Assembly: GCA_002793855.1 (NCBI GenBank)
Contig: PFET01000008.1
Coordinates: forward strand, 9,171 to 59,572
Direction of reading: 5' to 3'
DNA: 50,402 nt
From: Candidatus Uhrbacteria bacterium CG10_big_fil_rev_8_21_14_0_10_48_11
GTDB lineage: Bacteria > Patescibacteriota > Patescibacteriia > GWA2-46-9
The notes beneath the pieces are model-generated. The model was not told the origin of the DNA and ran no database searches. It saw nothing but the letters and a program-made list of their open reading frames with translations. Within the stretch, counting starts at the first letter, position 1, and every line of letters begins with the position of its first letter. The position numbers were made by a program, and so were the translations under genes. Positions 22,779 through 33,429 of this stretch are shown here, one piece after another.

Positions 22779-23273
22779 ATGTCGAACCGCCACCTTGCTC
22801 GGACGGTCGCAATGCAGTCGCTCTACGAGCTTGATTTTGCCGAACCGCTAGCAACACTTACCCTTGACGATGCTTTGCGTCAGCGGCTCGATACGCTTGT
22901 ACGAGGGAATATGAAAGAGTTCGCGCCCGGCGCCGAAGACGAAACCTTTACCTCGGCGCTTGTTGCCGGAGTGGTAGAACATATAGCGGAGATTGATCCT
23001 TATCTCACCAAGTATGCGCCCGAGTGGCCGATTGGTCAAATCACCATTGTTGATCGCAACATTTTGCGGATTGGCGTTTTTGAACTTGTCATTACTCACG
23101 ACGTGCCGGCTAAGGTGGCCATTAACGAAGCAATCGAACTTGCCAAAGCATTTGGTGGTGAGTCGTCAGGCAGATTCGTAAATGGTGTCCTTGGTGCAAT
23201 TTATAAAGACAGTGCCGATTCGGCGACTGAGGTTGCTGATGAAGGTAGTAAAACAGAACAGCATGAATCATAA
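22779..23273 (+). CDS. nusB: Antitermination factor NusB
   Basis: [36 protein letters not shown]. Confidence 0.95.
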
Positions 23274-23955
23274 TCTCGAACAGTTTGAAGAGAGACTTGG
23301 TGTTACGTTTGCTAACCGCGATTTTTTGGAACAGGCGCTCGTTCATCGTTCGTACCTCAACGAGAATCCGACCTTTCCCTTTGGTCACAATGAACGGCTA
23401 GAGTTTTTGGGTGATGCCGTTCTCGAGCTGGTGGTTACTGAGTACCTCTATAAAAATTATGAGAATCCAGAAGGAGACCTTACCAATTGGCGAGCGAGTT
23501 TGGTTAACACTAAGATGCTTGCCGAAGTAGCAGAAGAGCTACACATGCGCGACTACCTTTACCTGTCGCGGGGCGAGGCAAAAGAGACTAACCCCAAGGC
23601 CAGAACCTACATTTTAGCAAACACGTTTGAGGCCGTTGTGGGGGCGATGTACCTTGATCAAGGTTTTGGCGCGGCAGAAAAATTTATCCACCAGTTTCTC
23701 TTGCCACGACTGCCGCACATTTTAGAGCACGAACTGTACCGCGACCCTAAGAGCGCTTTTCAGGAAGCTTCTCAGGAAAAAGTCGGGATTACACCGAACT
23801 ATCGCGTTGTCAGTGAAACCGGTCCGGATCACGCTAAAATTTTCACCATTGGTATTTATCTTAATGATGAGCTTGTCGCCGAGGGTACAGGTGCCAGCAA
23901 GCAAGAAGGCGAAGAGGCGGCCGCACGGGCAGCGCTCAAAGCAAAGTCGTGGTAG
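23263..23955 (+). CDS. rnc: Ribonuclease III
   Basis: [13 protein letters not shown], dsRBD with GPDHAKIF. Confidence 0.96.
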
Positions 23956-25117: not shown

Positions 25118-25192
25118 GCCTCTATAGCTCAACGGATAGAGCACTGGTCTTCGGAACCAGGGATGGGGGTTCGATTCCCTCTGGGGGCACCA
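25118..25192 (+). tRNA. tRNA-Arg(TCG)
   Basis: CTGGT-CTTCGGA-ACCAG anticodon arm, GTTCGATTC T-loop, CCA end. Confidence 0.95.
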
Positions 25193-25265
25193 TTCGACTC
25201 GCTTCGCTCGCTCATGGCAAGCAATCCTTTTGGCGAGTCGAATGTCCTGAGCAAAGTCGAAGGAC
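25191..25265. repeat. REP-like palindromic element
   Basis: CATTCGACTCGC (25191-25202)/GCGAGTCGAATG (25233-25244) 12-bp IR, followed by GTCCTGAGC..GTCGAAGGAC. Confidence 0.55.
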
Positions 25266-25322
25266 TACATCTTCATTCGCAAAGGTTTGTTTTTGCTATA
25301 CGCTATATGTTATTTGCCATAT

Positions 25323-25398
25323 GGGTCGGTAGCTCAATCGGTAGAGCAGATCCCTCTTAAGGATAAGGTTCTGGGTTCGATTCCCAGCCGACCCACCA
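25323..25398 (+). tRNA. tRNA-Lys(CTT)
   Basis: 76-nt cloverleaf, loop CTCTTAA, GTTCGATTC T-loop, CCA end. Confidence 0.95.
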
Positions 25399-25527
25399 AG
25401 GAAAATACGGTTCCAAATGGAGCCAAATGTATTATGTTCTCAGCAGTTCAAGTCCCACCCGTGTCCAAAGAATTCCATGCCCCATACGGGTTCGGGACTT
25501 AAACGGCGATCGTGATAAATAGCAGAC

Positions 25528-25559
25528 AGTAAAACGCCCCTCGCGGGGTGTTTTACTTT
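25528..25559. terminator. Intrinsic terminator-like hairpin
   Basis: AGTAAAACGCCCC-tcgc-GGGGTGTTTTACT. Confidence 0.65.
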
Positions 25560-25710
25560 GCGCGGCAGACTCCCGTGGTGTCAGCTCAGAGGGGGAAACG
25601 TTTAACTTTAAGTGGGCAATGTGCATGAGAAAACAATAGACTTAGAGGACTGGGTTGATAACAATAAAACACCACTCGTTTTTCAAGACGTTATTCGGTT
25701 TAAATAACGT

Positions 25711-26339
25711 CTATAGTCGAAGTTTCTTTTTTCGGTCCGCCCACTCCTCTTTCGCCTGCTTTGTTTCTTCTCGCGCCCACTTTTTGTGAACCTTGTCTCA
25801 GTGTCGTTTGACTGATTTCCAGATCGGGTCAAAATGTTCGATGAGATCGGGATTCTCCTTTTTCAAGAATATATACTCATGAACAGATCCATTGTCATTG
25901 AGAATTTCTCTAGCATATAGCTTGCCCTCTCGAACCAGTTTTTTGAGCGTCGGTGCATTAATTTTTAGTTCGTCTTTGAGCTTCCATGACGAAAAGTAGC
26001 TTTCTCGATTATTGAAGATGAATGTAGGCACAACGCTATCTTTCACTGCCTTTTGACACACTAAACATTTGGGGCCATACCAATCGTGCCAGCCGGTCGT
26101 TTCGTTGATTGAGGAGTGGCAAAGGATGCAGCTATAGTTCCCGTCGACAGGAAAACCGTCAGGCTCCTTTTTAAGACGACGCTTTTTTGACGATCCTTCA
26201 TATCGATGTCCATGAGCAGTTTAAAGAAGTTCAGCAAATTGTAAGCTGACTCGTAGGCTTCTTTGTCGTCGAGCTCTTTGCCATATTCTTTTTTGTAAAT
26301 TTTTTTGAATTCCTCAATCGCTTCTTTTGATGGTTCCAT
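25711..26339 (-). pseudogene. Hypothetical protein with two CxxC motifs, frameshift plus premature stop
   Basis: MEPSKEAIEEFKKIYKKEYG.. shifts near 26185 into RRLKKEPDGF..CILC..KCLVCQKA; TGA at 25798-25800; frame continues to TAG at 25711. Confidence 0.7.
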
Positions 26340-26527: not shown

Positions 26528-27436
26528 ATGGCAAAGTACAGTTCGTTGACAAGAGGACAGGATGAGGCGCTCGTGAACAAGCTCGGTGAAGCCTTCGATG
26601 GCGATGGACTCGCTGCAGTCCACGCTATCTTGGCTGGTGCCAAGGTGACGATTGAAGAGGTTATTGCAACCTTCTTCGACTGTCACGGCCGACGCATCCC
26701 GCCCCGGGGCATCAAGGCAGCAGTGTGCGATGCGAATCGCACGTACCACTTGCTTCAACCGGAGACCATCGACTACGTCGCTCGTCTCGAGCGGGTGCGC
26801 GATGCCTTCGAGGGCAAGGTGAAACTGCCCGAGGCTGCCTGGTTCGAGGACGCCATCGGCGGACTCAAGGTGAAGGTCACGAGTGACTCCAAGATTGAGA
26901 ACGCTCTGAAGGGCGTGCATCTGCCGAACGTCGTTCCGCAGATGGTAGTCGTCGAACACGGCACCACGCTCGACGATGTGCTGCTGCTCGCTCTCGGTCG
27001 CTCCTACCAGAAGGAGTTCCCAGCTCGTCCCTTCAACAACTACCGCAAGGGCAAGCTGACGGGACAGACGACCGTCATCGAGGGAAGCAAGCTCGATATT
27101 CTTGTCGAGCGGGCGAAGCAGGGTCCAGTTCCCCTGATCGAGTTCCCGACCGCGACGCAAGGGTACTCGGTTCACGCGCAACGCGAGCAGATGGAAACGA
27201 TGCCAAAGGGGTTCATCCTCAACGGCTTCAACACTATCCTCAGCGCCATCATGTGGCCGGACGTCATCTGCCGGGACTACAAGACCCCGGTGATCGACCT
27301 CTCCGCCTATCAGTGGCGGGGCGCCGAGTACTCGCTCGCCCTGCTCTCGCGCGACGGCTTCCTCGACTTCGACTACGGGGCGAGCCTCGCTGGTGCGGGC
27401 GGCGACTGCTCTGGTGGCGTGTCCTTCCTCGGGTAG
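26528..27436 (+). CDS. DGR target (variable) protein with C-terminal VR, presumed CLec-like fold
   Basis: Last 40 codons match TR with adenine-biased mismatches; ends SGGVSFLG; GGAGG RBS; GC-rich. Confidence 0.92.
   Translation: MAKYSSLTRGQDEALVNKLGEAFDGDGLAAVHAILAGAKVTIEEVIATFFDCHGRRIPPRGIKAAVCDANRTYHLLQPETIDYVARLERVRDAFEGKVKLPEAAWFEDAIGGLKVKVTSDSKIENALKGVHLPNVVPQMVVVEHGTTLDDVLLLALGRSYQKEFPARPFNNYRKGKLTGQTTVIEGSKLDILVERAKQGPVPLIEFPTATQGYSVHAQREQMETMPKGFILNGFNTILSAIMWPDVICRDYKTPVIDLSAYQWRGAEYSLALLSRDGFLDFDYGASLAGAGGDCSGGVSFLG
27314..27433 (+). repeat. DGR variable repeat (VR); identical A-free 3' segment 27410-27432 is the probable initiation (IMH-proximal) region
   Basis: Ungapped 120-bp alignment to 27868-27987, 100/120 identical. 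Confidence 0.95.
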
Positions 27437-27447
27437 TGAGGGTCTTC

Positions 27448-27516
27448 GGGCTTCGGTGGCTTGAACCTTGGACCAAGGATTTCGGTCTTTGGTCTTTCGG
27501 TTCACCACCGATGCCC
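27448..27516 (+). other. Long hairpin immediately 3' of VR (candidate DGR targeting element)
   Basis: GGGC.TCGGTGG..TGAACC / GGTTCA.CCACCGA.GCCC outer stem; inner GACCAAGGAT-TTCG-GTCTTTGGTC. Confidence 0.65.
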
Positions 27517-27525
27517 CAGTTTACG

Positions 27526-27567
27526 AACGAGGGTGTGATGTAATGTCGCACCCTCGTTTTTCGTTTT
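27526..27567 (+). terminator. Intrinsic terminator of the DGR target gene
   Basis: AACGAGGGTG...CACCCTCGTT followed by a T-rich tail. Confidence 0.75.
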
Positions 27568-27867
27568 CAAAAAATTGCTATACTGCATTTGAGATTAGGC
27601 TCTTGTACCGTGGTTGGCTCATCCTGATCACGGCCGCCGAAATCCTCGTAGCTCACCAACGTGTCGGAATCCGACAGTTACCAGTCTCGACTGAGTTTGA
27701 TTGTCGGAGCGTACATGGAGCACGCAGACACTACGTACCGTTTCCTGTGGTCCAGTCGCCTCTGTCAGTTGACGGGTGGCGGACATGAAAGAAGGGACCG
27801 AATAAAATTCAGACTCGGAGTCAACGTGGCCGAGAGTCGGTGCCAATGGATAGGAAACGGTATTTTC

Positions 27868-27987
27868 TGGCAGGACGCCGAGTACTCGCTCTACCTGAAC
27901 TCGAACGACGACTTCCTCTACTTCGACAACAGGGCGAACCTCGCTGATGCGAACGACAACTACTCTGGTGGCGTGTCCTTCCTCGGA
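27868..27987 (+). ncRNA. DGR template repeat (TR)
   Basis: 26 adenines, six AAC codons; 18 of 20 differences from VR are at TR A. Confidence 0.95.
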
Positions 27988-28002
27988 TTGTGTCTGTTAA
28001 AA

Positions 28003-28046
28003 AGCCGGCGAGAGCTTGCGCAACTAAGCAAGCTCTCGTATCGGCT
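28003..28046. other. Hairpin 3' of TR overlapping the avd stop codon
   Basis: CGAGAGCTTGC/GCAAGCTCTCG 11-bp stem extended by AGCCG/CGGCT; the A-run 5' of it gives a U-tail on the minus strand. Confidence 0.65.
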
Positions 28047-28404
28047 GCTGAATGTTATTGAGCGATCGTTGCCAGCCACCAAGCATCCGTCCGATCTCTT
28101 GAATCTGAGTTTGCAGAGTAACGTATTTTTTGGCATCTATCGCGCAAATTTCTCTGGCTAGTCGCAAGAGAATCTTGAGCGCATCGAACTTGACGTTCGC
28201 TTGTCGTAAAAGTACCAGTTTTTCTGTTTGTGGAGTGCTGCTGGCCGCCAGTAGCAATTCAAGCGTTGAGAGAATGTAACGCTCACACTTGGCACCGAGG
28301 GTATACTTGTCCTTTTTTGGAAATAGCAGTGAGTAGCTGTAAAAAGTTTTATAGAGATCATAAAGTTTTTGTACGATGGGTATTTCCTCTTGTTGTTTTA
28401 CGGT

Positions 28405-28419
<15 letters not shown>
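28024..28419 (-). CDS. avd: DGR accessory variability determinant (Avd-like four-helix bundle)
   Basis: IPIVQKLYDL..FPKKDKYTLG..LKILLRLA..EIGRMLGGW; 131 aa from ATG 28419. Confidence 0.9.
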
Positions 28420-29502
<1,083 letters not shown>

Positions 29503-31436: not shown

Positions 31437-31979
31437 TTAATTTTTAAAAGCCGAGATTGTTGTTTTATTTTTATAGCCAGACAATGGAGCTAAAATATTT
31501 TTTGTCCTAATCTTCATTTTTGGTGACGACGCCCGGGGTAGCTGCTTTCTGCAACTGCCCCGGGCGTCGGTGTCTTCGGTTTCACGGCATCTCGTGGGCA
31601 TGCCTCTGGCGGTGCCCACAGGTGACGTCCGCGAAAGTACCTTCCCGAATGTCTTCCGGGAATTAGAAGAAGTTGAGTCGGCAGTGTGTCTTGAACTCTC
31701 CCGACCCGTCTTCGACGATGAGATGAACGGGCTTCCTTCCGGGTGCCCGGGCGACGCGGCAGGTGCCCTTGCGCCGCGGTACCAGGCCCCTCGAAAAAGG
31801 CACAGTGCGCAGGTGATTTCTCCGACCGGTCGCTCCTCAATTTTGCCGTTGTACGAACGGAAGGCGCGAATCGTTCCCGCGACGTCGATGCCACAGCAGG
31901 TGACATCATTTTCATCGATGGCGTGTCGCACGTAGCGTTTCTTGAACCGGACGGTCTTTACTCTCCGTGGTTCGGACAT
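31437..31979 (-). CDS. Hypothetical protein, possible Zn-binding N-domain; 3' half doubtful
   Basis: AAGGAG RBS; H..TCC...TCALC pattern; low-complexity tail. Confidence 0.4.
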   Translation of the reverse strand: MSEPRRVKTVRFKKRYVRHAIDENDVTCCGIDVAGTIRAFRSYNGKIEERPVGEITCALCLFRGAWYRGARAPAASPGHPEGSPFISSSKTGRESSRHTADSTSSNSRKTFGKVLSRTSPVGTARGMPTRCRETEDTDARGSCRKQLPRASSPKMKIRTKNILAPLSGYKNKTTISAFKN

Positions 31980-32017
31980 GGCGTTCTCCTTGGCGCTTTG
32001 AAGAGCGCGGTTGTGTT

Positions 32018-32577
32018 CTATCTGAGTGATTGGACGAATCCAATGAGGCGCGTCCCGACGAGCACTGCACTTGCTCCGGGTTTGATGTCCGCGATGGTCC
32101 GGAGGTTGCTAGCTTGGCAGAGCCAGTTTCGTCCGAACGCGGCACGGGCTTGTTCCCACGTTTCTGTTTTGCTGTTCTCGGGTTGATAAAGAAGCCGCAA
32201 GTCGCGGTCATTCCAGACCGCACGGTAGGCAGCCGGGATTCTCCGCAATTCCTCGACAGTGTAGGGTTCGATGAGGCAGCTCATCGAACAGTACTCGGGG
32301 ATTCGTCCGACTACCAGAACGTGGGTAGCGCCCGCGTCGAATGCGGCCTTGACCTCATCGTCGCTTGCGTGGATTCCCTTGGCGAGAATGGGCTGGTTCT
32401 CCGCCACGCTTCGCTGACGAGCTTCATCGACCCGCCCCAGCGTGCATCGGTGTGGATCGAGATCCAGTCTCCGTGTTCGTTCGCGATGTCAAAGAGCTCA
32501 TCCCAGCTTCGCTCTGACCGCCAGCCGGAAGAGGCTTGTGTCTTTACTTCGGCGATGAATGTGATGTTGCCAATCAT
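32018..32577 (-). pseudogene. Short indole-3-glycerol-phosphate synthase (TrpC)-like TIM barrel, frameshifted
   Basis: FIAEVKT, ISIHTDARWGGS, then frameshift near 32400, PILAKG, WNDRDL, QASNL, GASAVLVG. Confidence 0.7.
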
Positions 32578-32841
32578 GGCTTCTCTCCTCCTCGACCTTG
32601 TTTTGAATATGACGAGGGCTTTATGCACCATACTAACGCATAAAACCCTCGCCACATTATTGTTAAGGAGCACATCATCTTGTTCCATTTTATATTATTT
32701 GGTCAACTTGTAATGTTGATTTCTCTTGCTTCCAGCATTGAATTAGCGTAAGGCGGTGCAGTTCGTAACCTGGAGGGATCGCAAAAAGGTTTGCGGTTGT
32801 TCATTTTATCAATCACATTCGAGAACGTTTCGGAGGACATC

Positions 32842-33429
32842 ATGAATATTCGAAGGGCGCTCATGAGCGTCAGTGACAAAACCGGCCTTACCTAGTTTGC
32901 TGCTGGCTTGCAGCTGCTCGGTGTTGAAATCATCTCGACCGGTGGAACCGCTACGGCACTCGCCAAAACCGGCGTCGTCGTTCAGCCGGTCGAGAAGTTC
33001 ACTGGTTACCCGGAGATGCTCGGGGGGAGAGTGAAGACTCTGCACCCCAAGGTGCACGGTGGGATTCTCTGGAGGAGAGGGCATCCGGAGGATCACGCTA
33101 CGGTGCTCAAGTACGGATTGCAGTCGATCGACCTCGTCTGCGTCAACCTCTACCCGTTCGCGGACACCGTCGCGAAGGGTCGAGTTCGCCGAATGTGTCG
33201 AGCAAATCGACATCGGCGGACCCGCCATGCTTCGCTCCGCGGCGAAGAATCACGAGGACGTCATCGTCCTCGTCGATCCGGCGGACTACGCCGGGCGCTG
33301 ACCGATCTTCGCGACGGCAACCCGCTTTCGCCGGAGGCGCGGCGCCACCTCGCATGGAAGGTGTTCGTGCATACTGCAGCATACGACGCCACCATCGCGG
33401 CGTACTTTGCCGGACACATTGTCGCCTGA
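32842..33429 (+). pseudogene. purH: PurH N-terminal IMP cyclohydrolase domain only, inactivated
   Basis: [50 protein letters not shown]; TAG at 32893 and two frameshifts (near 33180 and 33295). Confidence 0.88.

What the first reader, a model, noticed from the sequence alone, without database searches (positions are those of the whole stretch)
28024..28419. avd is antisense, between TR and RT, with a 15-bp head-to-head overlap with RT
Seen: order is target(+), TR(+), avd(-), RT(+), and the likely start codons (RT 28405, avd 28419) overlap. Known: in BPP-1, avd-TR-brt are co-oriented. Inference: each promoter must lie within or beyond the other gene, so a TR-RT transcript would be antisense to avd mRNA. 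This offers possible control by transcriptional interference or RNase III (rnc lies 4 kb away).
Basis: partly seen in the sequence, partly recalled or inferred. Interest (0 to 1): 0.7.

Follow-up and report, generated by a model that had tools for sequence, protein, structure and literature searches.

The report
Standard CPR-type DGR gene layout
The backwards-facing helper gene that overlaps the start of the reverse transcriptase is real, but it is the usual, already catalogued layout of these mutation-generating elements in tiny groundwater bacteria; looking closer turned up a conserved folded RNA and slippery repeats that may matter more.

Summary
The order is target/VR(+), TR(+), avd(-), RT(+). 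The avd ATG (28419) and the RT ATG (28405) overlap by 15 bp, and by at least 9 bp with any standard start codon.

The layout is not new. Wu et al. 2018 list it as architecture B3, TR-(avd)-RT, which makes up 90% of their CPR DGR set. In my samples of relatives, avd lay head-to-head with RT in 31 of 31, 76 of 76 and 72 of 73 assessable loci. The conserved cores of the two genes lie a median of 61 nt apart, so there is no room for a normal divergent promoter gap.

The proposed TR-RT transcript antisense to avd is not supported as a family rule. A covariation-supported RNA domain lies just 5' of TR (window 27727-27874). Two helices, P0 and P1, clamp the TR. A hairpin follows TR and overlaps the avd stop codon. 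This looks like a rearranged (permuted) version of the BPP-1 DGR RNA, with no need for RNA beyond the hairpin. That is inference.

Side findings:
- The RT contains a (CT)16 repeat, the only long dinucleotide repeat in the genome.
- Relatives carry repeats at the same site, and these split the RT reading frame.
- 67 of 164 junctions carry poly-G tracts.
- The window's RT reads YADN where relatives read YADD.

No RNA data were available.

The parts
26528..27436 (+). DGR target gene (302 aa) with the variable repeat at its 3' end
   Evidence: ORF. It holds the VR copy. No Pfam family at E<=0.01.
27314..27438 (+). Variable repeat (VR)
   Evidence: 125-nt direct repeat with TR, 83% identical. 18 of 21 mismatches lie opposite TR adenines.
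27466..27478 (.). Short palindrome (6+1+6) 28 nt after VR; candidate for the inverted repeat that follows IMH in other DGRs
   Evidence: Read directly. The block is conserved in the same-genus relative. Role inferred from Wu et al. passages.
27525..27559 (+). Terminator-like hairpin plus T-run after the target gene
   Evidence: 16 pairs, then a T-rich tail.
27576..27584 (+). Candidate extended -10 element (TGnTAYACT) for the TR-carrying RNA
   Evidence: Read and conserved in the same-genus relative. Inference only: no TSS data, and the scan does not list it.
27724..27729 (+). P0 5' strand. It pairs with the 6 nt that start at the last TR base (27992-27997). It is followed by the conserved ACU at 27730-27732 (invariant in the 30-sequence seed alignment), the candidate priming site.
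   Evidence: at least 6 bp in 33 of 51 loci, against a swap-control mean of 12.6 and maximum of 21 in 1000 swaps. Present in the MFE fold.
27727..27874 (+). Conserved structured RNA domain (model R1) directly 5' of TR. P1 is 27735-27747 with 27851-27863. P2 is about 27749-27753 with 27795-27799. A conserved single strand lies at 27800-27812. P3 is about 27813-27818 with 27830-27838.
   Evidence: cmsearch 76.9 bits, E 5.8e-21, the only hit in the window and in the 891-kb genome. Covariation.
27868..27992 (+). Template repeat (TR)
   Evidence: 26 adenines, 25 of them at codon positions 1 or 2 of the VR frame.
28009..28038 (.). Hairpin 16 nt after TR, with the avd stop codon in its loop. On the minus strand it is followed by a T-run, so it looks like the avd terminator. 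On the plus strand it sits where Handa et al. place the Avd-binding stem-loop.
   Evidence: Passages of 10.1101/2023.10.23.563531.
28024..28419 (-). avd (131 aa plus stop codon)
   Evidence: Pfam bAvd E 5.7e-19. N-terminus aligned with relatives.
28405..28419 (.). 15-nt head-to-head overlap of the RT and avd coding starts
28405..29502 (+). DGR reverse transcriptase (365 aa plus stop codon)
   Evidence: RVT_1 E 5e-21. 44-49% identical to 24 aligned relatives; up to 80% identical over residues 3-197 to the RT of the same-family genome G002.
28961..28992 (+). (CT)16 repeat inside RT. It codes Ser-Leu repeats in the loop between motif A and motif B and is in frame here.
   Evidence: It is the only dinucleotide repeat above 5 units in the genome. 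Public contigs break there.
29134..29136 (+). Asn codon in YADN, where 24 of 24 aligned relatives have the second Asp of YxDD. The Lys codon at 29035-29037 likewise replaces the Asn of IGNLTSQ.

Best explanation
This is an ordinary member of the CPR (Patescibacteria) class of diversity-generating retroelements, architecture B3.

**What is shown**
- avd and RT are divergent genes whose coding starts overlap by 15 nt.
- This compact junction (overlapping, abutting or a few nt apart) is a conserved trait of the whole RT clade.
- A structured RNA domain with strong covariation lies immediately 5' of TR.
- A helix (P1) ends 4 nt before TR.
- A second helix (P0) joins the bases just 5' of a conserved ACU (invariant in the 30-sequence seed alignment) to the bases just 3' of TR.
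- A hairpin follows TR and overlaps the last codons of avd.

**What is inferred**
- The TR is expressed as a discrete non-coding RNA of about 320-450 nt that starts upstream of 27724 and needs nothing beyond the hairpin.
- The elements that lie between TR and brt in phage BPP-1 are the priming adenosine, one strand of the stop duplex, a stem-loop, an A-rich single strand and the RT-binding stem-loop. Here they sit upstream of TR, so the RNA is circularly permuted.
- That frees the TR-RT interval, so avd can sit there in antisense, converging on the hairpin.
- avd and RT are then transcribed from promoters buried in each other's first codons. That is workable in a genome that hardly uses Shine-Dalgarno sites and often uses leaderless mRNAs.
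- Control of the machinery is more likely stochastic, through slippery repeats in RT and in avd of relatives, than through antisense RNA.
- This particular copy may be catalytically impaired (YADN).
For: **Layout**
- The components are established.
- B3 is defined in Wu et al..
- avd is opposite and adjacent to RT in 31 of 31 loci, in 76 of 80 (the other 4 have RT at the contig start), and in 72 of 80 (7 without flank, 1 with none).
- In 164 distinct junctions the core-to-core distance has a median of 61 nt (IQR 52-72), and 160 are at most 100 nt.
- Of 97 junctions without a G tract, 74 had ATG/ATG picks: 24 overlap, 11 abut, 37 have gaps of 1-25 nt and 2 have larger gaps.
- TR is on the RT strand in 80 of 80 loci with a detected pair (24 of 104 had none). 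It ends -4 to 80 nt before the avd stop in 76 of 80.

**RNA**
- RNAalifold predicts 24 pairs, 21 of them with compensatory changes.
- The model finds one hit in each of 90 of 100 sources, always upstream of TR on the RT strand, and one hit per genome in 3 of 4 genomes.
- 94.8% of cells are paired, against 40-51% when partners are slid. The covariation score is 0.869 against 0.10-0.17.
- The 40 nt upstream of TR are not complementary to the 140 nt downstream (mean z -0.31; 3 of 73 below -2). They are complementary to far-upstream sequence, which is the stronger partner in 56 of 73.
- P0 is supported.
- The MFE fold contains P0, P1 and the hairpin, with z -3.93.
- A hairpin of at least 6 bp is present in 73 of 76 spacers.

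**Translation context**
- SD-like motifs occur before 8% of starts against 5% background.
- TANNNT peaks at -12 (47 of 514 against about 10).
Against: - There are no transcript data of any kind, so RNA ends, promoters and the independence of the three transcripts are all inferred.
- In the window itself the hairpin's T-run lies on the avd strand, not the TR strand. Read-through from TR into antisense avd and on into RT is therefore not excluded here. No plus-strand terminator was predicted between 27560 and 29500.
- 31 of 73 relatives have no T-run on either side of the hairpin.
- No -10-like element stands at the leaderless position before RT or avd in the window. There is no positional peak in 30 relatives.
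- The alignment used for one search was fitted to the model, which favours pairing.
- The P0 control baseline is high (12.6 of 51 by chance).
- The analogy of R1 elements to the BPP-1 stop duplex, thumb ring and RT-binding stem-loop rests on order and position only.
- Handa et al. report stop duplexes between upstream and downstream segments in DGRs including CPR ones. I could not see their table S3.
- All loci were picked by similarity to this RT, so they sample one clade.
Confidence: 0.68

Rival explanations
1. TR and RT are made as one long plus-strand transcript that runs antisense through the whole of avd. The pairing of this RNA with avd mRNA, cut by RNase III or acting through transcriptional interference, sets the Avd:RT ratio.
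For: In the window no plus-strand terminator is predicted between TR and the end of RT, and the hairpin after TR lacks a plus-strand T-run. RT has no recognisable promoter of its own. An RNase III gene is present in the genome.
Against: The conserved RNA elements lie upstream of TR and end at the hairpin. In 36 of 73 relatives the hairpin is followed by a T-run on the TR strand. That would stop such a transcript in cassettes with the same layout. rnc sits among housekeeping genes. No RNA data exist.
Confidence: 0.17
2. The overlap is an annotation artefact. The true starts lie downstream, and a normal divergent intergenic promoter region separates the genes.
For: Start codons were not mapped experimentally. 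avd has a TTG two codons in, at 28413.
Against: There is no ATG, GTG or TTG between 28405 and the conserved RT N-terminal motif. There is none between 28413 and the conserved Avd motif. The conserved cores are only 55 nt apart in the window and a median of 61 nt apart in 164 junctions. The paired ATGs keep their spacing while the codons between them change.
Confidence: 0.03
3. The cassette in this genome is a decaying, no longer active DGR. Its junction and repeat are then relics without present function.
For: The RT has YADN and IGK at two positions where 24 of 24 aligned relatives agree. It has the most deviations (5 of 89 near-invariant columns) in the set. 3 of 21 TR/VR mismatches are not at adenines. 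A same-family genome (G002, 100% complete) has RT and avd but no R1 RNA or TR.
Against: All reading frames are intact, including across (CT)16. R1, P0, P1, TR and the hairpin are all present and fold. 18 adenine-specific differences show past activity. Whether YADN abolishes activity was not tested; that the second Asp is essential is recalled from other RTs.
Confidence: 0.3

Closest known systems
DGR architecture B3, TR-(avd)-RT, of Wu et al. 2018 (Nucleic Acids Res 46:11, PMC5758913)
   Same: Same order and strands: TR, then avd on the reverse strand, then RT, with the target upstream. [quoted passage not shown]
   Different: Nothing in the layout. The paper's main text has no occurrence of 'promoter', 'secondary structure', 'spacer' or 'antisense', and it uses 'overlap' only in other contexts. 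The near-zero avd-RT spacing, the leader RNA and the repeats are therefore not discussed there. Its supplements were not read.
Bordetella phage BPP-1 DGR (mtd-avd-TR-brt)
   Same: Same parts: an RT with the LTSQ motif, Avd, TR/VR with adenine-specific differences, and VR at the 3' end of the target.
   Different: In BPP-1 avd is co-oriented and upstream of TR, and a 140-nt spacer RNA lies between TR and brt. Here avd is antisense in that interval and overlaps the RT start.
BPP-1 DGR RNA elements of Handa et al. (bioRxiv 10.1101/2023.10.23.563531; passages and section 10 read)
   Same: A stem-loop just downstream of TR. A duplex of about 13 bp abutting the 5' end of TR. A strand that pairs with the 3' end of TR, followed by an adenosine and then the duplex strand. 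After that come a stem-loop, an A-rich single strand and a second stem-loop.
   Different: Here the partner strand and all following elements lie upstream of TR, not downstream. The connectivity is permuted. Binding and priming were not tested.
Simple-sequence-repeat contingency (phase-variable) genes of Neisseria, Haemophilus and Campylobacter
   Same: Long homopolymer or dinucleotide tracts inside coding sequence. Their length differs between otherwise identical DNA and decides the reading frame.
   Different: Here the tracts lie in the RT and Avd genes of a mutagenic retroelement in CPR bacteria. Reversible switching and any phenotype are untested. My searches listed no paper that links such repeats to DGRs.

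Membership tests
Diversity-generating retroelement | Reverse transcriptase of the DGR clade with the motif-4 ...LTSQ signature | tested here: met
   RVT_1 E 5e-21. It aligns end to end with 24 RTs that sit in TR/VR cassettes. IGKLTSQ is present. The motif name is recalled.
Diversity-generating retroelement | TR/VR repeat pair whose differences fall at TR adenines, with VR at the 3' end of a gene | tested here: met
   18 of 21 mismatches fall at TR adenines. VR ends at the target stop codon.
Diversity-generating retroelement | Accessory variability determinant (Avd) | tested here: met
   Pfam bAvd 69 bits against a cut-off of 40.
Diversity-generating retroelement | Intact catalytic YxDD box | tested here: not met
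   YADN at 29125-29136. 24 of 24 aligned relatives have DD. The element is a DGR by architecture, but activity of this copy is doubtful.
Diversity-generating retroelement | Ongoing VR diversification in the population | tested here: inconclusive
   Only contigs of 4 DNA runs could be laid, and no variant letters were listed.
Architecture B3 (Wu et al. 2018) | Core order TR, avd on the reverse strand, RT | tested here: met
   against the definition read.
Architecture B3 (Wu et al. 2018) | Host of the candidate phyla radiation | tested here: met
   The genome is 891 kb and 97% complete. Nearest named relatives are Uhrbacteria and other Patescibacteria MAGs.
BPP-1-type DGR RNA | Stem-loop immediately downstream of TR (Avd-binding) | tested here: met
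   Met by position only: the window hairpin is at 28009-28038, and 73 of 76 relatives have one. Binding is not testable here.
BPP-1-type DGR RNA | Stop duplex formed between the segment upstream of TR and the spacer downstream of TR | tested here: not met
   There is no excess complementarity with the 140 nt downstream. The partner is upstream, with covariation.
BPP-1-type DGR RNA | Priming adenosine preceded by a strand that pairs with the 3' end of TR | tested here: inconclusive
   The P0 pairing and the conserved ACU fit this. Priming itself is not testable here.
SSR contingency locus | Long repeat tract inside the coding sequence, rare in the genome | tested here: met
   (CT)16 in RT. The next longest dinucleotide repeats have 5 units.
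SSR contingency locus | Tract length differs between otherwise identical DNA and changes the frame | tested here: met
   Met in a relative, not in the window. Contigs L121, L153 and L154 are 98.9-100% identical (L121 and L153 have no mismatches). They carry (CT)14, 16 and 21, and RT is intact only with 14. That strain lacks TR and R1.
SSR contingency locus | Reversible ON/OFF switching with a phenotype | not testable with these tools
   Needs read-level or culture data.

The most novel reading that the evidence does not exclude
CPR DGRs differ from the textbook BPP-1 element in two undescribed ways.

1. Their template RNA is a circular permutation of the BPP-1 DGR RNA. The priming adenosine, the stop-duplex strand, the A-rich single strand and the RT-binding stem-loop all sit upstream of TR. 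The RNA ends at the Avd-binding hairpin. This is why avd can sit antisense between TR and RT.

2. The mutagenic machinery is itself placed under stochastic ON/OFF switches: poly-G/C tracts at the 5' end of avd, and poly-G, (AG)n or (CT)n tracts in one loop of RT. Only a fraction of cells in a population can then diversify.
Probability: 0.45. Interest if true: 0.75.

Novelty: new member of a known kind. Interest (0 to 1): 0.42.

Why it matters

What could matter to people who study or engineer DGRs is the explanation behind the layout. A covariation-supported RNA domain upstream of TR clamps the template between two helices. It gives a concrete, testable model of how the most numerous class of natural DGRs primes cDNA synthesis without a TR-RT spacer.

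The repeats in RT and avd suggest that hypermutation is switched on in only part of a population. That would bear on how DGR activity is read from metagenomes. It would also bear on why many CPR DGR RTs look 'broken' in assemblies.

Tried and rejected
**RNA evidence**
- The look-up of sequencing runs listed 8 runs and no RNA holder.
- Laying contigs of 4 DNA runs gave no variant letters. The contigs stop at the (CT) repeat. Parts of the VR region are without cover in 3 runs, which proves nothing.

**Promoters**
- The consensus scan found 3 promoter-like sites against 2.1 expected, none at the junction.
- A -10 profile over 30 junctions showed no positional peak.
- The genome-wide leaderless signal at -12 is not matched before RT or avd.
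- I therefore could not place either promoter.

**Shine-Dalgarno sites**
- Neither gene has one, but such sites are rare genome-wide, so this is uninformative.

**Rfam**
- Only tRNAs reached the gathering threshold.
- Nothing was found on the R1 element even at E<=10.
- The RT-1 to RT-19 motifs of Weinberg et al. (passages read) were thus not matched, if they are in the library.

**Literature**
- Paul et al. 2017 (Nat Microbiol 2:17045) is not held, so its figures on CPR cassettes could not be checked.
- Roux et al. 2021 does not mention avd.
- Paul and Eren 2022 say nothing on orientation.
- bioRxiv supplements, including Handa table S3, are closed.

**Other**
- Earlier notes of this scan had nothing for this place.
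- I rejected the rnc link, because rnc lies in a housekeeping gene run.
- I considered a poly-G tract as a Shine-Dalgarno mimic for RT and rejected it. Its distance to the ATG varies from about 9 to 22 nt.

Full report
**1. The observation**

The region holds a complete DGR cassette.
- The target ORF 26528-27436 (+) ends in a 125-nt variable repeat (27314-27438).
- The template repeat lies at 27868-27992 (+). The two copies differ at 21 positions, 18 of them adenines in TR.
- On the minus strand, 28024-28419 encodes a 131-aa protein that matches Pfam bAvd (E 5.7e-19).
- On the plus strand, 28405-29502 encodes a 365-aa reverse transcriptase (RVT_1, E 5e-21).
- ATG 28405-28407 and CAT 28417-28419 give a 15-nt head-to-head overlap.

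Start-codon choice cannot remove the overlap.
- avd has only one other candidate before its conserved motif, TTG at 28413.
- RT has none downstream of 28405, only TTGs upstream. The overlap is therefore at least 9 nt.
- In the same-family genome G002 both ATGs keep the 15-nt spacing while the three codons between them differ. Other subgroups keep ATGnnnCAT, ATGCAT or CATATG.

**2. How general the layout is**

The window comes from an 891-kb, 97% complete genome with one DGR RT. In a sample of its class, 157 of 401 genomes had an RT homologue at E<=1e-20.

I examined three sets of loci, all chosen by similarity to this RT and therefore sampling one clade.
- Set 1: 31 distinct loci from that class sample. 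An Avd gene lies directly upstream of RT on the other strand in 31 of 31.
- Set 2: 80 loci from species genomes, titled Patescibacteria, Uhrbacteria, Magasanikbacteria, Peregrinibacteria and others. Avd is opposite and adjacent in 76. The other 4 have RT at the contig start.
- Set 3: 80 metagenome contigs. Avd is opposite and adjacent in 72, 7 have no upstream flank and 1 has none.

The sets give 164 distinct junctions.
- The distance between a conserved RT codon (residue 11) and a conserved Avd codon has a median of 61 nt (IQR 52-72). It is at most 100 nt in 160 of 164.
- Of the 97 junctions without a G tract, 74 had ATG/ATG picks by a fixed rule. Of these, 24 overlap, 11 abut (CATATG), 37 have gaps of 1-25 nt and 2 have larger gaps.

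TR also keeps its place. A TR/VR pair was detected in 80 of 104 loci. TR lies on the RT strand in 80 of 80, and it ends -4 to 80 nt (median 36.5) before the avd stop codon in 76 of 80. The whole cassette is stereotyped.

**3. It is already catalogued**

Wu et al. 2018 (PMC5758913; section 22 and passages read) define architecture B3 as TR-(avd)-RT, with parentheses meaning the reverse strand.

That paper's main text does not use 'promoter', 'antisense', 'spacer' or 'secondary structure'. Paul et al. 2017 could not be read.

**4. Why avd can sit there: the RNA**

*A conserved domain upstream of TR.* The roughly 150 nt before TR are conserved across the clade.
- RNAalifold on 30 sequences gave three helices with 24 pairs, 21 of them with compensatory changes.
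- A covariance model found exactly one hit in each of 90 of 100 sources, always just upstream of TR on the RT strand. In the window it lies at 27727-27874 (76.9 bits, E 5.8e-21).
- It hits once per genome in G000, G001 and G003, and not at all in G002.
- On 88 distinct sequences, 94.8% of cells pair against 40-51% with slid partners. 23 of 24 pairs show double changes. The covariation score is 0.869 against 0.10-0.17. The alignment was fitted to the model, which favours pairing.
- Rfam 15 has nothing there, even at E<=10.

*Two helices clamp the template.*
- Helix P1 (13 bp; window 27735-27747 with 27851-27863) ends 4 nt before TR.
- A further helix, P0, joins the 6-9 nt just 5' of a conserved ACU (invariant in the 30-sequence seed alignment) to the bases just 3' of TR.
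- P0 has at least 6 contiguous pairs in 33 of 51 loci, with 29 distinct sequences. Swapping partners between loci gives a mean of 12.6 and a maximum of 21 in 1000 swaps.
- In the window, 27724-27729 pairs with 27992-27997.
- The MFE fold of 27716-28046 contains P0, P1 and the terminal hairpin. Its z-score is -3.93, and 0 of 100 shuffles fold as well.

*The partner is upstream, not downstream.* The 40 nt upstream of TR show no excess complementarity to the 140 nt downstream (mean z -0.31; 3 of 73 below -2; mononucleotide shuffles). They do to far-upstream sequence, which is the stronger partner in 56 of 73.

*The hairpin after TR.*
- A hairpin of at least 6 bp lies between TR and the avd stop in 73 of 76 loci, and one of at least 8 bp in 62.
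- In the window it is 28009-28038, with the avd stop codon in its loop.

*Comparison with BPP-1.* Handa et al. (bioRxiv 10.1101/2023.10.23.563531; passages and section 10 read) describe the BPP-1 RNA in this order:
- an upstream strand of a 'stop' duplex;
- TR;
- the Avd-binding stem-loop;
- a strand that pairs with the TR 3' end;
- the priming A56;
- the other stop strand;
- a stem-loop, adenosines and a single-stranded 'thumb ring';
- the RT-binding stem-loop.

The CPR order is:
- the P0 strand;
- ACU;
- the P1 strand;
- the P2 stem-loop;
- an A-rich conserved single strand;
- the P3 stem-loop;
- the other P1 strand;
- TR;
- the other P0 strand;
- the hairpin.

The local arrangement is the same but the connectivity is permuted. 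I infer that the CPR template RNA needs nothing beyond the hairpin. That leaves the TR-RT interval free for a convergent avd. Binding and priming roles rest on analogy only.

**5. Transcription**

In 36 of 73 relatives the hairpin is followed by at least 5 T in 9 nt on the TR strand. The count is 6 of 73 on the avd strand, and 31 have neither. In many cassettes of identical layout the TR RNA therefore probably terminates there.

The window is one of the 6. Its T-run serves avd, so read-through into antisense avd is not excluded here, and no plus-strand terminator is predicted before the end of RT.

I could not locate the avd or RT promoters.

The genome hardly uses SD-like motifs: 8% of first starts against 5% background. 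It shows a TANNNT peak at -12 before starts (47 of 514 against about 10), which is the mark of leaderless mRNAs. Genes without any 5' leader are therefore plausible here. Neither RT nor avd has that box at -12.

A TGnTAYACT element at 27576-27584 and the sequence after it are conserved in the same-genus relative (84% identity over the VR-to-R1 spacer). This may be the promoter of the TR RNA.

rnc lies at 23182-23955 next to gyrA, nusB and a T2SSE ATPase. I see no reason to link it to the DGR.

No RNA run holds the region.

**6. Repeats in the machinery (side finding, partly followed)**

*The window's repeat.* The window's RT contains (CT)16 at 28961-28992, in frame. It codes Ser-Leu repeats in the loop between motifs A and B. 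It is the only dinucleotide repeat above 5 units in the 891-kb genome.

*Close relatives.* The same-genus genome G001 has C12(CT)14 and the same-family genome G002 has (CT)16 at the same site. In both the RT is split into two frames exactly there, with the downstream half intact.

*Direct length polymorphism.* Three metagenome contigs of the G002 strain carry (CT)14, 16 and 21. They are 98.9-100% identical pairwise, and L121 and L153 have no mismatches. RT is one ORF only with (CT)14. The caveat is that this strain has no R1 RNA or TR next to avd or anywhere in its genome. It may be a remnant.

*Other split RTs.* Seven more RT hits, chosen because they were split, all break at the same loop. 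Six of them have G9-G12 or (AG)8-9 at the break.

*Overall tally.* Among 187 distinct RT loci, 175 are intact and 12 are split. 8 intact ones carry a repeat in that loop. 9 of the 12 splits lie at the loop. The sampling favours intact RTs in the three main sets and split ones in the seven extra loci.

*Tracts in avd.* 67 of 164 junctions carry a G7-G13 tract, which is poly-C in the avd sense, at the 5' end of avd. In the first 104 loci, 39 had one. An in-frame start lies upstream of the tract in 20 of these 39 and none in 19, most of which have an ATG in another frame (automated, starts unverified). The window has no such tract.

*Literature.* Searches for DGR with phase variation, phase-variable or homopolymer listed no paper on this. 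I saw listings only.

*Alternatives.* These are assembly error at repeats, transcriptional slippage, or decay.

**7. State of this copy**

The RT reads YADN at 29125-29136 and IGKLTSQ at 29029-29049. All 24 aligned relatives have DD and N at those columns. It has 5 deviations at 89 near-invariant columns, the most in the set. Frames and RNA elements are intact. Activity is uncertain.

**8. Verdict**

The layout is the known CPR norm. The antisense-control idea is untested and not needed.

The most useful results are the upstream RNA domain with its clamp on TR, and the repeats. Both are clade-wide and, as far as I could search, undescribed.

Noticed in passing
window 28961-28992; L002, L003, L012, L114-L121, L153, L154: A simple repeat, (CT)n, (AG)n or poly-G, sits in one loop of the RT in a subset of relatives. 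The RT frame is split exactly there in several. One strain shows (CT)14, 16 and 21 in otherwise near-identical contigs.
   Followed up: partly
junction upstream of RT in 67 of 164 related loci (e.g. L004, L014, L032, L098, L108); not in the window: A G7-G13 tract, poly-C in the avd sense, lies at the 5' end of avd. In the first 104 loci, about half of the 39 tract-bearing ones have an in-frame upstream start and half do not. It looks like a contingency tract.
   Followed up: partly
window 29035-29037 and 29134-29136: The RT has Lys in IGNLTSQ and Asn in YADD, where 24 of 24 aligned relatives agree. The enzyme of this copy may be impaired.
   Followed up: partly
G002 (L002, L066, L121, L153, L154): This same-family genome is 100% complete and has avd and RT, but it has no R1 RNA and no TR/VR pair. 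It looks like a remnant cassette. Contigs L121 and L153 also differ by an indel of about 196 nt downstream of RT.
   Followed up: partly
window 27441-27505, palindrome 27466-27478: The block right after VR is almost unchanged in the same-genus relative and holds a 6+1+6 palindrome. It may be the inverted repeat that helps target recognition in other DGRs.
   Followed up: no
window 27576-27727: The stretch between the target terminator and the R1 domain is highly conserved with G001, including a TGnTAYACT element. The RNA may start here and may hold further structure.
   Followed up: no
whole genome G000: SD-like motifs are barely enriched before starts (8% against 5%). TANNNT peaks 12 nt before start codons. 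This suggests widespread leaderless mRNAs in this organism.
   Followed up: partly
window 25118-26339: tRNA-Arg and tRNA-Lys lie just upstream of the cassette. Two small minus-strand ORFs (25798-26339) without Pfam matches lie between them and the target gene. GC drops to about 0.40 there and rises to about 0.60 in the target gene.
   Followed up: no
window 31437-33429: A GC-rich stretch has overlapping ORFs on both strands without Pfam matches, and a short ORF with only the start of an AICARFT/IMPCHase (purH-like) protein. It may be a broken or mis-framed gene.
   Followed up: no
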